Positions 38,837 to 63,232 of a stretch of DNA of 64,000 bases are shown one piece after another (position 1 is the first letter of the stretch; each line of letters opens with the position of its first letter). The notes below the pieces were generated by a model. That model ran no database searches and had not been told where the DNA came from. It saw only the letters and a program-made list of their open reading frames with translations. The translations under genes were made by a program, and so were the position numbers. The stretch spans positions 64,001-128,000 of the forward strand of contig JAHPZH010000002.1 in NCBI GenBank assembly GCA_019058315.1, given 5' to 3'. Source of the DNA: Candidatus Helarchaeota archaeon (GTDB taxonomy: Archaea > Asgardarchaeota > Lokiarchaeia > Helarchaeales > RDOG01).

Positions 38837-39379
38837 CTAGTGTATAGCTAGTATAGCTAAAATTAAATAAATTAAAGTAGGATCCAAAATAGGAGAACTC
38901 ACTAATAATACTAAAAATACTTGAATAACAAAAGAGATTATACAACAAAAAATTAGTCTATAATTTATCCTGAAAATTCTAATTTTAGCGTTTATGTTTA
39001 TTTCGAATTTTTTTAATATTGATAAGCCAATTTCATTAAAATCTCTTATCTTGTTTGCAATACTATCTTTATCTGTTAATATAAATTTCTCAACATTATA
39101 TGATTCGTATTGTTTTAAACCAATTGAATACAAACCAATAATTATAGGGATAAGAAAACAAAATAGATTAATTATAATCGAAAAAAATAAAATTTCACTG
39201 ATCTCATATCGATTTAAAAAAAAACTAACGATAAATGTGGCAGCAGTTAAAAAAATTCCCGCAAAATTAATTATACTTACGTTCTTATTCTCTATGTTTT
39301 GGTCTCGAGTTCGTTCATAATCGTTAACAATCTTAATTAACTCGGAATAAAATTGATCTTTTTGAATTTCTTCTGCCAT
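38837..39379 (-). CDS. Hypothetical membrane protein (3-4 TM)
   Basis: Hydrophobic segments. Confidence 0.6.
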   Translation of the reverse strand: MAEEIQKDQFYSELIKIVNDYERTRDQNIENKNVSIINFAGIFLTAATFIVSFFLNRYEISEILFFSIIINLFCFLIPIIIGLYSIGLKQYESYNVEKFILTDKDSIANKIRDFNEIGLSILKKFEININAKIRIFRINYRLIFCCIISFVIQVFLVLLVSSPILDPTLIYLILAILAIH

Positions 39380-39550
39380 ATTTTAATTCCTAACTTTTTC
39401 ATTTTTAAATTATAGGATTTACATATTCTTTAGAAAAATTCGAAAAATGGAATAGATATTAATCTAGTAGATGTGAGAGTTGGATTACAAATTTTTTTTT
39501 GAAAATTAGATTGTTTAAAAAAAAGAAAATAAAAAATATAAATTATTTTT

Positions 39551-39688
39551 GGACTCAGATTCCGCCCATATCATCAAATGCTAATCAGCAGTAAGATTTT
39601 ATCATCATTGTCACAGAATTTCGTGATAAAATCCGGCGACAATGCCTGGTAATTTCAAAAGATAAATCGATACTGCTATTAACATTTT
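39551..39688 (-). ncRNA. Box C/D sRNA (core 39551-39613) with a probable ~75-nt 5' extension
   Basis: Minus strand: C box ATGATGA (39608-39602), 13-nt guide, D' CTGA (39588-39585), C' TTGATGA (39577-39571), 12-nt guide, D CTGA (39558-39555), terminal GAC/GTC stem; TATA-like element ~39708-39715; T-rich tract downstream. Confidence 0.82.
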
Positions 39689-39810
39689 AATCACGTAAAT
39701 AAATTATTTTTAAAATATCTATAGTAATTCATAAGCTCATAATTTTAATACTTTTGCTTTCCCAATTAAATTCCTCAGAAAAGAGATATAAAAAAAAATA
39801 AGAATAGATT

Positions 39811-40017
39811 TTATTTCGGAGGTTTAGCATCTGGACGTGCTTCTGTTGCAGGTTTTCCTTCAATTCCCCAGTGTGCTTTTGGTATTTCGTTAATAATAAC
39901 TTCTACAGCATATTTAGGAATGCCAAGATTTACAAAGACATCAGTTATTCCCGCAATCACTTTTTTTATATTTTCTTCTGAAAAACCTTTCCATACATAA
40001 ATTTGAGCTAAAGGCAT
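39811..40017 (-). CDS. 4-oxalocrotonate tautomerase family protein
   Basis: MPLAQI (catalytic Pro1), IT......G.P..AV.V.I.E.....WGI.G. Confidence 0.88.
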   Translation of the reverse strand: MPLAQIYVWKGFSEENIKKVIAGITDVFVNLGIPKYAVEVIINEIPKAHWGIEGKPATEARPDAKPPK

Positions 40018-40091
40018 TGATTCCACCTTTTTAGATTAGATCATTAATTAAATTATGGGTTTTTAAATAAAAATTTGATATGACTCAATTA

Positions 40092-40115
40092 TCTCCTCAT
40101 TTGCTTTCTAGGTTA
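40092..40115. repeat. Direct repeat copy 2 (23/24 identical to 41465-41488, the pre-23S trailer)
   Basis: TCTCCTCATTTGCTTTCTAGGTTA versus TCTCCTCATTTGCTGTCTAGGTTA. Confidence 0.88.
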
Positions 40116-63140: not shown

Positions 63141-63232
63141 GGCAGACTGTGCCGTAGGTGGTCCTGCGGTCCGGACTTCAGATCCGGGATACTCGAGAGA
63201 GTATGCGGTTCGATTCCGCCAGTCCGCCGCCA
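63141..63232 (+). tRNA. selC: tRNA-Sec (TCA), archaeal 9/4 fold
   Basis: 9-bp acceptor GGCAGACTG/CAGTCCGCC (one A-C), 7-bp D-stem, 6-bp anticodon stem with CTTCAGA loop, long variable arm, 4-bp T-stem, G73-CCA; TTTATA at ~63113. Confidence 0.95.

What the first reader, a model, noticed from the sequence alone, without database searches (positions are those of the whole stretch)
39551..39688. Box C/D sRNA with a 5' leader that base-pairs with its own boxes and both guides (self-gated or self-targeting guide RNA)
Seen on the minus strand: a textbook C-D'-C'-D core preceded by ~75 nt carrying three antisense elements. AATGTTAAT-AGCAGTA (39686-39671) pairs with TACTGCTGATTAGCATT and covers box D'. 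GGATTTTATCA (39634-39624) pairs with TGATAAAATCT and covers box C plus the D' guide. CATTGTCGC (39644-39636) pairs with GTGACAATG and covers the terminal stem. All three use G-U pairs only on this strand. In addition, ATT(G)TCGCC-GGATTTTA (39643-39627) matches the D guide (GGCGGAAT) and D' guide (TAAAATCT) back-to-back in the antiparallel order of a dual substrate. A TATA-like element places the start at the hairpin base. Known archaeal C/D sRNAs are mostly ~55-60 nt without such leaders. Inference: a conformational switch, built-in decoy or cis-substrate controlled by L7Ae binding or processing.
Basis: partly seen in the sequence, partly recalled or inferred. Interest (0 to 1): 0.78.

Follow-up and report, generated by a model that had tools for sequence, protein, structure and literature searches.

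The report
Guide RNA with self-pairing leader
An Asgard archaeon carries a textbook small methylation-guide RNA gene, and the 75 bases in front of it are a decayed back-to-front copy of the RNA's own first half, so the raw transcript should fold shut over its protein-binding box; whether this lock is used or is a duplication scar is untested.

Summary
On the minus strand, 39612-39552 is a canonical archaeal box C/D sRNA: boxes C, D', C' and D are all perfect, the guides are 13 and 12 nt, and the kink-turn geometry is exact with a 3-bp terminal stem. It is the only perfect four-box pattern in this 5.8-Mb genome and in 160 relatives of its class. L7Ae, Nop5 and fibrillarin genes are present. The upstream 75 nt pair with the sRNA's first 43 nt exactly as listed. 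The predicted fold is -43.5 kcal/mol (z -4.4), against -30.7 on the other strand. Opening it to free box C costs about 27-31 kcal/mol. Three other C/D sRNAs of the same genome show nothing similar (z about 0).

The caveats are substantial.
- Adjacent inverted repeats this strong occur in 0.7% of random places in this genome.
- No orthologue, covariation or RNA data could be found.
- One natural strain variant breaks a pair.
- Both guides are orphans.
- The "dual cis-substrate" reading fails the box+5 pairing rule.

Most likely this is a genuine lineage-specific sRNA gene with an inverted partial self-copy as leader. If that leader is transcribed, it masks box C until it is removed. A regulated switch remains speculative. 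The scan noted a comparable "self-locking" C/D sRNA earlier in another genome.

The parts
39703..39716 (-). TATA-like run (UUUUAAAAAUAA), candidate promoter; would put the transcription start near 39690-39680
   Evidence: Sequence. There is no comparable TATA-like run 20-40 nt upstream of the sRNA 5' end, unlike two other sRNAs of this genome. This is an inference; no transcript data exist.
39790..39798 (-). T9 run after the tautomerase gene (stop at 39811), a likely archaeal terminator that separates the sRNA unit from the upstream gene
   Evidence: Sequence; Pfam Tautomerase match for 39811-40026. The terminator role is inferred.
39671..39686 (-). Leader outer arm AAUGUUAAUAGCAGUA; pairs with 39593-39577 (3' end of the D' guide, box D', the spacer)
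   Evidence: One U.G pair (U39682.G39581); G39586 is bulged.
39661..39668 (-). Leader middle arm GAUUUAUC; pairs with 39603-39595 (end of box C and 5' part of the D' guide)
   Evidence: Minimum-energy fold; inverted repeat I3.
39645..39660 (-). 16-nt unpaired insert in the leader arm, opposite 2 nt of box C
   Evidence: gap in the alignment of the leader to the reverse complement of the core.
39636..39644 (-). Leader inner arm CAUUGUCGC; pairs with 39614-39606 (5' terminal-stem strand and the first 3 nt of box C)
   Evidence: I4. One G.U pair (G39637.U39613).
39624..39634 (-). GGAUUUUAUCA. It is either the 5' side of a small apical hairpin (with 39622-39616) or, alternatively, an 11-bp pairing with 39604-39594 (box C 3' half and D' guide)
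   Evidence: fold from a start at 39637; I13: 10 nt, 100% complementary.
39552..39612 (-). Box C/D sRNA body (61 nt). Box C 39608-02; D' guide 39601-39589; D' 39588-85; spacer 39584-77; C' 39576-71; D guide 39570-59; D 39558-55; terminal stem 39612-10 with 39554-52
   Evidence: Weak hits to many C/D families, all below gathering scores.
39517..39536 (-). T6, T4 and T8 runs downstream of the sRNA, a likely terminator of the sRNA unit
   Evidence: Sequence; inferred.

Best explanation
This is a genuine, lineage-specific box C/D methylation-guide RNA gene with its own promoter and terminator. Its roughly 75-nt 5' leader is a decayed inverted copy of the sRNA's own first 43 nt, most likely made by a local inverted duplication or template switch. 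If the leader is transcribed, as the promoter layout suggests, the primary transcript folds into an interrupted hairpin of about 40 bp. The 3' arm of that hairpin ends at 39577, before box D (39558-55) has been made. Box C, the D' guide and box D' are therefore buried, and the C/D kink-turn cannot form. The leader thus acts as a cis mask, giving a 'pro-sRNA'. A working L7Ae-Nop5-fibrillarin particle can assemble only after the leader is cut off or displaced. What is shown: the anatomy, the pairing, its strand bias, its rarity, and the presence of the protein genes. What is inferred: the transcription start, folding in the cell, leader removal, and any benefit from it.
For: - The four boxes are perfect, the spacing is 13/8/12 nt and the kink-turn geometry is exact.
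- It is the only such pattern in the genome and in 161 genomes of the class.
- Fibrillarin and Nop5 genes lie next to each other, and L7Ae-family genes are present.
- The fold is -43.5 kcal/mol, z -4.4. The opposite strand gives -30.7, z -2.5.
- In the ensemble, box C positions 1-3 and 6-7 and most of the D' guide are paired more than 95% of the time, while C', the two ends of the D guide (39570-69, 39563-59) and box D stay free (its middle, 39568-64, is paired). Forcing the kink-turn costs 27-31 kcal/mol.
- Leader against the reverse complement of the core gives p = 7e-4.
- Three other C/D sRNAs of the same genome give p = 0.5-0.93 and z between -0.6 and +0.1.
- Both substitutions between the arms, and the one in the alternative element, are G.U on this strand.
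- The TATA-like run sits at the right distance from the hairpin base, and there is none just upstream of the core.
- In a 97%-identical strain, A39609>G turns an A-U pair into G.U, so the pair is kept.
Against: - There are no transcript data at all.
- No orthologue was found, so there is no covariation test.
- In the same strain, C39580>A breaks a G-C pair of the outer helix without compensation.
- Adjacent inverted repeats of this strength occur in 0.7-1.5% of random places in this genome. Across a scan of many windows, some sRNAs will have one by chance.
- Both guides are orphans, so even the activity of the sRNA is unproven.
- The region is so AT-rich that the promoter call is weak.
- Flanks of Sulfolobus sRNAs can be changed without affecting maturation (PMC7994747).
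Confidence: 0.42

Rival explanations
1. The leader is a neutral scar. It is a local inverted duplication or quasi-palindrome at the DNA level with no role. Either transcription starts downstream of it, or the leader is trimmed away like any other precursor flank, and the sRNA matures normally or is itself decaying.
For: - Local inverted repeats are about ten times commoner in this genome than random pairing predicts (0.68% against 0.07%).
- The arms differ by a 16-nt insert, two 1-nt indels and a 2x1 internal loop.
- A natural variant breaks a pair.
- No conservation was detectable.
- The other sRNAs lack such leaders.
- Archaeal sRNA maturation is reported to be independent of flanking sequence (PMC7994747).
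- The guides are orphans.
Against: - A fold of -41 to -43 kcal/mol covering box C would interfere physically if it is transcribed.
- All substitutions are wobble-compatible on the sRNA strand. This is weak evidence, about 1 in 8.
- Two separate leader elements are antisense to the same box C / D' guide segment.
- There is no TATA-like run at the usual distance from the core.
Confidence: 0.38
2. The leader is a regulated conformational switch or decoy. The two alternative leader pairings (39644-36 or 39634-24 with the core) toggle in response to L7Ae level, temperature or processing, which sets how much active guide is made.
For: - Two mutually exclusive pairings both hit box C.
- The G.U pairs are strand-specific.
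- The terminal stem is unusually short at 3 bp, against 4-10 bp in the other sRNAs of this genome. Kink-turn formation would therefore depend strongly on protein and on competing structure.
Against: - Both alternatives are 'off' states. No leader structure was found that would stabilise an 'on' state.
- The cost of 27-31 kcal/mol is far more than L7Ae binding is likely to pay without leader cleavage (inference).
- There is no conservation and no second example in this genome.
Confidence: 0.12
3. The leader is a cis-substrate. It would be ribose-methylated by the sRNA's own guides, by analogy with the intron guide of pre-tRNA-Trp.
For: Leader 39643-39627 contains short matches to both guides side by side. 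Leader 39675-39661 is antisense to the whole D' guide apart from a small internal loop.
Against: - For the D' guide match at 39634-27, the box+5 nucleotide is unpaired.
- For the D guide match, a bulge lies beside the box+5 position and only 8 pairs form.
- For 39675-61, the duplex is interrupted directly after position 5.
- When the leader is paired, box C is buried too, so no particle could form on the same molecule.
Confidence: 0.03
4. It is not a C/D sRNA at all. The box pattern would be a coincidence inside an unrelated hairpin RNA or DNA palindrome.
For: - There is no target, orthologue or expression evidence.
- Rfam scores are below every gathering threshold.
- Across a scan of many gigabases, a few perfect four-box patterns are expected by chance (my estimate).
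Against: - About 0.006 chance hits are expected in this genome, and none is found at one mismatch.
- The kink-turn register is exact, the guides are 12-13 nt and the K-loop spacer is 8 nt.
- The gene lies in an intergenic region, with a promoter-like run and T-run terminators.
- The organism has the full protein set and other C/D sRNAs.
Confidence: 0.08

Closest known systems
Archaeal box C/D sRNAs (guides of the L7Ae-Nop5-fibrillarin 2'-O-methyltransferase)
   Same: All four boxes, guide spacers of 12-13 nt, a terminal kink-turn and an internal K-loop, an intergenic gene and the partner proteins encoded. Orphan guides are also common in known sets; 28% of Pyrobaculum guides are orphans according to PMC7994747.
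   Different: No rRNA or tRNA target was found. There is a long 5' leader antisense to the sRNA's own box C, D' guide and D' box, and the terminal stem has only 3 bp. Described archaeal precursors have flanks that are irrelevant to maturation.
Box C/D guide inside the intron of euryarchaeal pre-tRNA-Trp (Haloferax, Pyrococcus; Clouet-d'Orval et al. 2001, cited in PMC7994747)
   Same: A C/D guide embedded in a larger precursor, where the guide pairs in cis with another part of the same transcript and competing structures must be resolved during maturation.
   Different: In pre-tRNA-Trp the cis pairing is a proper guide-target duplex that obeys the box+5 rule and leaves the boxes free. Here the pairing covers the boxes themselves and fails that rule, and there is no tRNA and no bulge-helix-bulge motif.
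Eukaryotic pre-snoRNA hairpins cut by RNase III (yeast Rnt1p); from my own knowledge, not checked in a paper here
   Same: A double-stranded stem in the precursor next to a C/D RNA. This genome encodes a small RNase III-domain protein.
   Different: Rnt1p stems are formed by flanking sequence, not by box C. No cleavage signal was identified here, and the link to the RNase III gene is pure inference.
Earlier scan finding e1-5290182: a C/D sRNA of ammonia-oxidiser-like archaea with a 3' tail antisense to its own box C
   Same: A box C/D sRNA whose naked transcript should fold shut over box C.
   Different: That one is a short 3' tail, said to be conserved across a family, on a guide with a 16S target. 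This one is a 75-nt 5' leader, in a single lineage, with orphan guides. I did not re-test that finding.

Membership tests
Archaeal box C/D sRNA | Box C (RUGAUGA) near the 5' end and box D (CUGA) near the 3' end | tested here: met
   AUGAUGA at 39608-02 and CUGA at 39558-55.
Archaeal box C/D sRNA | Internal D' and C' boxes forming a K-loop, with a spacer of about 3-10 nt | tested here: met
   CUGA at 39588-85, an 8-nt spacer, and UGAUGA at 39576-71, all perfect.
Archaeal box C/D sRNA | Guide spacers of about 12 nt between C and D' and between C' and D | tested here: met
   13 nt and 12 nt.
Archaeal box C/D sRNA | A terminal stem directly flanking a 3-nt bulge, giving kink-turn geometry | tested here: met
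   C39610-G39554, A39611-U39553 and G39612-C39552, with A39609/A39608/U39607 as the bulge. This is only 3 bp, against 4-10 bp in other sRNAs of this genome.
Archaeal box C/D sRNA | Partner proteins L7Ae, Nop5 and fibrillarin encoded | tested here: met
   PF01269 at 309.8 bits and PF01798 at 218 bits, adjacent on C3; PF01248 at 107 bits on C5.
Archaeal box C/D sRNA | At least one guide complementary (9-10 bp or more, box+5 nucleotide paired) to rRNA or tRNA | tested here: not met
   No hit above the reversed-sequence control in LSU, pre-LSU spacers, the SSU 5' half, 43 tRNAs with flanks, the tRNA array or the RNase P region. The best matches are 8 bp to the universal SSU decoding-site sequence in relatives and 8 bp to the tRNA-Sec T-arm. 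The genome's own SSU 3' half is not in the assembly. Orphan guides are accepted members of the family, so this lowers confidence but does not exclude membership.
Archaeal box C/D sRNA | Expressed as an RNA of about 50-70 nt bound by the C/D proteins | not testable with these tools
   No RNA run was listed for this DNA.
Archaeal box C/D sRNA | Match to a curated Rfam C/D family | tested here: inconclusive
   Best scores are 19.7 bits (snoU54, gathering score 35) and 18.6 bits (snoPyro_CD, gathering score 45), with about a dozen C/D families at E 0.07-8 on the same 60 nt. These models are lineage-specific.
RNA conformational switch | Two alternative structures, each conserved or covarying, with a trigger | not testable with these tools
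   Two alternative pairings exist, but no orthologues were found. The only variation comes from strains about 97% identical; one change keeps a pair and one breaks a pair.
Cis-acting C/D guide with its own substrate (pre-tRNA-Trp type) | A continuous guide-target duplex with the box+5 nucleotide paired and the boxes free | tested here: not met
   Depending on the element, the box+5 nucleotide is unpaired, lies next to a bulge, or lies next to an internal loop. Box C is buried in the same structure.

The most novel reading that the evidence does not exclude
An auto-inhibited 'pro-guide' RNA. In this Asgard archaeon, assembly of a C/D methylation particle would be gated by a leader hairpin that must be cut away, possibly by the genome's small RNase III-type enzyme. 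That would be a eukaryote-like (Rnt1-type) route of pre-snoRNA processing, and the first cis-inhibitory leader described for an archaeal guide RNA.
Probability: 0.1. Interest if true: 0.75.

Novelty: new variant of a known kind. Interest (0 to 1): 0.4.

Why it matters
Box C/D guide RNAs are thought to mature passively in archaea: the proteins bind the kink-turn and nucleases trim whatever flanks are left. A guide whose own leader hides the kink-turn would be a built-in control point for particle assembly, in the archaeal group closest to eukaryotes, where snoRNA maturation is elaborate. It would also show how guide genes change by local inverted duplication. If the leader is only a scar, the locus is still useful as one of the few catalogued Asgard C/D sRNAs, and as a case of an orphan guide with perfect boxes.

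Tried and rejected
- Expression: no RNA holder was listed for 39300-40100 or for 39530-39730.
- Contigs of four sediment or marsh runs laid on the stretch gave only strains about 97% identical over the sRNA. More distant contigs cover only the tautomerase gene and then run on unlike.
- Orthologue searches all came back blank.
  - BLAST of 261 nt in 60 relatives hit only the AT-rich tail.
  - The D-guide pattern with 3 mismatches in 161 class genomes hit only coding sequences; two of the hits looked, by eye, like a histidine-kinase coding motif.
  - The perfect four-box pattern gave nothing in the class.
  - Transition-tolerant patterns for either guide gave nothing in genome contigs, metagenome contigs or viral contigs.
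  - A covariance model of hairpin plus core gave nothing in the 7 genomes of the order.
  - The scan's own index of look-alike stretches gave nothing.
- These blanks are weak evidence. The exact guide of a second, clearly rRNA-directed sRNA of this genome is also absent from all 160 relatives.
- Synteny could not help. The 180-aa and 378-aa neighbours have no usable orthologues in the order. The 180-aa protein has one homologue, 96% identical, on a 767-nt contig with only 44 nt upstream.
- Genome-wide target search by runs of 10 bp or more gives thousands of chance hits and was dropped.
- The single perfect 12-mer target, at C2:116289-116300, lies antisense to a 449-aa ORF, so that mRNA has the guide's own sense and is not a target.
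- The sigma-70 promoter and intrinsic-terminator scan is not relevant to archaea and found nothing above shuffles.
- No bulge-helix-bulge motif and no second kink-turn could be seen in the hairpin by eye.

Full report
**Setting.** The window is G000:C5:64001-128000 of a 5.8-Mb, 30%-GC archaeal assembly of 12 contigs. It carries an archaeal 23S rRNA, RNase P RNA and tRNA-Sec. Earlier notes of the scan describe Asgard-type genes and multi-intron tRNAs in it. The feature lies in a 430-nt intergenic region on the minus strand. Upstream is a 71-aa tautomerase gene (39811-40026; Pfam PF01361). Downstream is a 180-aa gene of no known family (38837-39379). The 23S rRNA gene lies 2 kb upstream on the same strand.

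**The core is a canonical box C/D sRNA.** Read on the minus strand:
- terminal stem 39612-10 with 39554-52;
- a 3-nt bulge A39609/A39608/U39607;
- box C at 39608-02;
- a 13-nt D' guide at 39601-39589;
- box D' at 39588-85;
- an 8-nt spacer at 39584-77;
- box C' at 39576-71;
- a 12-nt D guide at 39570-59;
- box D at 39558-55.

A pattern scan finds this as the only perfect C-D'-C'-D arrangement in the genome. There are no hits at one mismatch, 10 at two and 34 at three, which is what chance gives for the relaxed classes. My estimate of the chance expectation for a perfect hit is about 0.006. It is also the only perfect hit among 161 genomes of the class. Fibrillarin and Nop5 genes sit side by side on C3, and L7Ae-family genes are present. 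Rfam gives only sub-threshold hits to about a dozen C/D families on exactly these 60 nt. I rate it a genuine sRNA gene at close to 0.9.

**The leader pairing is real.** A fourth antisense element, 39668-61, was not listed. The nested minimum-energy structure pairs 39686-71 with 39593-77, 39668-61 with 39603-595, and 39644-36 with 39614-06, with a small apical hairpin at 39634-16.
- For 146 nt the energy is -43.5 kcal/mol, z -4.4, with 0 of 200 shuffles as good.
- The complementary strand folds to only -30.7 kcal/mol, z -2.5. The reason is that the substitutions between the arms are G.U on the sRNA strand.
- In the ensemble, box C positions 1-3 and 6-7, most of the D' guide, two of the four box D' nucleotides (C39588, U39587) and most of the spacer are almost fully paired. 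C', the two ends of the D guide and box D are free; its middle (39568-64) is paired.
- Forcing the kink-turn, or freeing the whole body, costs 27-31 kcal/mol.
- The 3' arm ends at 39577, which is 19 nt before box D begins. The hairpin can therefore close before the kink-turn partner exists. This last point is an inference.

**How unusual is it?**
- Aligning the 76-nt leader to the reverse complement of the core scores 29. That is p = 7e-4 against 423,000 random windows of this genome.
- The duplex energy is at p = 3.5e-3.
- The alignment shows that the leader is an inverted copy of core positions 1-43. It has a 16-nt insert where box C would be, two 1-nt indels and two transitions.
- Adjacent inverted repeats are common in this genome. 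0.68% of random 140-nt windows reach the same score between their two parts, and 1.5% of windows below 30% GC do.
- Four C/D sRNAs of this genome were compared. They were the focal one, a sarcin-ricin-loop guide in the tRNA array that I found independently, and two more that I located from earlier scan notes. Only the focal one has such a leader (p = 7e-4, z -4.3). The others give p = 0.5-0.93 and z between -0.6 and +0.1.

The feature is therefore specific to this gene and is not a general biogenesis motif of the organism. Its statistical weight is that of roughly a 1-in-150 event. A scan of many windows will turn up a few of those.

**Is the leader transcribed?**
- A T9 run follows the tautomerase gene at 39798-90, and T6/T4/T8 runs follow the sRNA at 39536-17. 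This suggests a separate unit.
- The best TATA-like run, at 39716-03, would place the start near 39690-39680, at the base of the hairpin.
- Two other sRNAs of this genome have TATA-like runs 20-40 nt from their 5' ends. The focal core has a GC-richer stretch there.
- Upstream regions here are so AT-rich that this evidence is weak.
- No RNA run could be listed.

I put co-transcription of the leader at about 0.6.

**Conservation.** None could be assessed. The searches that came back blank were:
- BLAST;
- guide patterns;
- the perfect four-box pattern in the class;
- transition-tolerant guide patterns in genome, metagenome and viral collections;
- a covariance model in the order;
- synteny through the neighbouring genes.

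As a control, the exact guide of the sarcin-ricin-loop sRNA is also missing from all 160 relatives. These blanks therefore say little. Contigs from other sediment runs give strains about 97% identical, with three changes in the unit:
- C39580>A breaks a G-C pair of the outer helix. It lies in the spacer, so it is neutral for the sRNA itself.
- A39609>G turns an A-U pair into G.U.
- C39649>U lies in the unpaired insert.

That is one change for the structure, one against and one neutral.

**Targets.** There is no complementarity above the reversed-sequence control in the 23S rRNA with its spacers, the 5' half of the 16S rRNA, 43 tRNAs with flanks, the tRNA array or the RNase P region. The 3' half of the 16S rRNA is missing from the assembly. 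In three relatives, the best D-guide site is 8 contiguous pairs on the universal decoding-site sequence, with box+5 at C1400 in E. coli numbering and two mismatches next to box D. An equal 8-bp match lies in the T-arm of tRNA-Sec in this window. Both are marginal. The guides are best called orphans, which is common among archaeal sRNAs (PMC7994747).

**The cis-substrate idea fails.**
- 39634-27 pairs with positions 6-13 of the D' guide, so the box+5 nucleotide is unpaired.
- 39643-35 pairs with the D guide over 8 bp, with a bulge beside box+5.
- 39675-61 pairs with the whole D' guide, but with an internal loop directly after position 5.
- In all of these states box C is buried.

**Reading.** The parsimonious account is a real, lineage-specific sRNA gene that acquired an inverted partial copy of itself just upstream. 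If that copy is transcribed, the RNA is born locked and needs leader removal to work. The genome encodes a 134-aa RNase III-domain protein. The four archaeal control genomes lack that family, so a nuclease for double-stranded RNA may be available, but nothing links it to this RNA. Whether the lock is selected as a gate or timer, or is a tolerated scar, cannot be decided from one lineage. My estimates are:
- about 0.42 for a leader that is transcribed and masks the RNA;
- about 0.38 for an inert scar;
- about 0.12 for a regulated switch;
- 0.03 for a cis-substrate;
- 0.08 for not being an sRNA at all.

These readings overlap and are not meant to sum to one.

**Relation to earlier scan notes.** The same stretch was noted twice by first readers (e1-5470031). 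A different genome gave a C/D sRNA with a 3' tail antisense to its own box C, said to be conserved in a family (e1-5290182). Another gave hairpin-scaffolded C/D cassettes (e1-2626226). I did not re-test either. They suggest that self-masking C/D precursors may recur and deserve one experimental test.

Noticed in passing
G000:C3:629503-629559, minus strand (L056:1501-1557), outside the window: A second C/D sRNA inside the tRNA array, with degenerate D' (CAGA) and C' (UGUGAA) boxes and a 4-bp terminal stem. Its D guide is 12/12 complementary to the sarcin-ricin loop UACGAGAGGAAC, with box+5 on the ricin-target adenine. Its D' guide hits the same site shifted by one base. The exact guide was not found in 160 class relatives.
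   Followed up: partly
G000:C5:129441-129516 (+) and G000:C5:532352-532433 (-), outside the window: Two more C/D sRNAs with long terminal stems of 7-10 bp and variant boxes (D box CUGGA; C box AUGACGA). One D guide matches the anticodon loop of a CAU tRNA. I used them as controls; neither has a self-complementary leader.
   Followed up: partly
G000:C5:209555-209680 (+), outside the window: Two minimal units of the form UCCCA-AUGAUGA-12 nt-CUGA. The second is closed by a stem of about 10 bp. Both 12-nt guides contain AGGUGAU. They look like single-guide half-size C/D RNAs.
   Followed up: no
G000:C11:19659-20063 (L059:1459-1863): A 134-aa protein with an RNase III catalytic domain and no double-strand-binding domain (Mini-III-like). 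The family is absent from the four archaeal control genomes of the search.
   Followed up: partly
G000:C12:50-897: Only the 5' half of the 16S rRNA (model positions 4-828) was found in the assembly, near one end of a 31-kb contig. The 3' half was not found, so any target there cannot be checked in the organism's own sequence.
   Followed up: partly
window 63213-63220 (+), in tRNA-Sec (63141-63228): AUUCCGCC in the T-loop and T-stem of tRNA-Sec is an 8-bp Watson-Crick match to the 3' end of the D guide. The box+5 nucleotide would be the second C of the 3' T-stem strand. The match is marginal and may be chance.
   Followed up: partly
class-wide (161 genomes): No other genome of the class has a perfect C-D'-C'-D arrangement at archaeal spacing. 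The other sRNAs of this genome have degenerate internal boxes and long terminal stems. C/D sRNAs of this group therefore seem to differ from the compact hyperthermophile type.
   Followed up: partly
whole genome G000: Adjacent inverted repeats are about ten times more frequent than pairing between unlinked windows. 0.68% of adjacent pairs reach alignment score 29, against 0.07% of unlinked pairs.
   Followed up: partly
window 39483-40100: Other sediment and marsh metagenome runs hold strains about 97% identical across this intergenic region. More distant relatives share only the tautomerase gene and diverge immediately outside it.
   Followed up: partly
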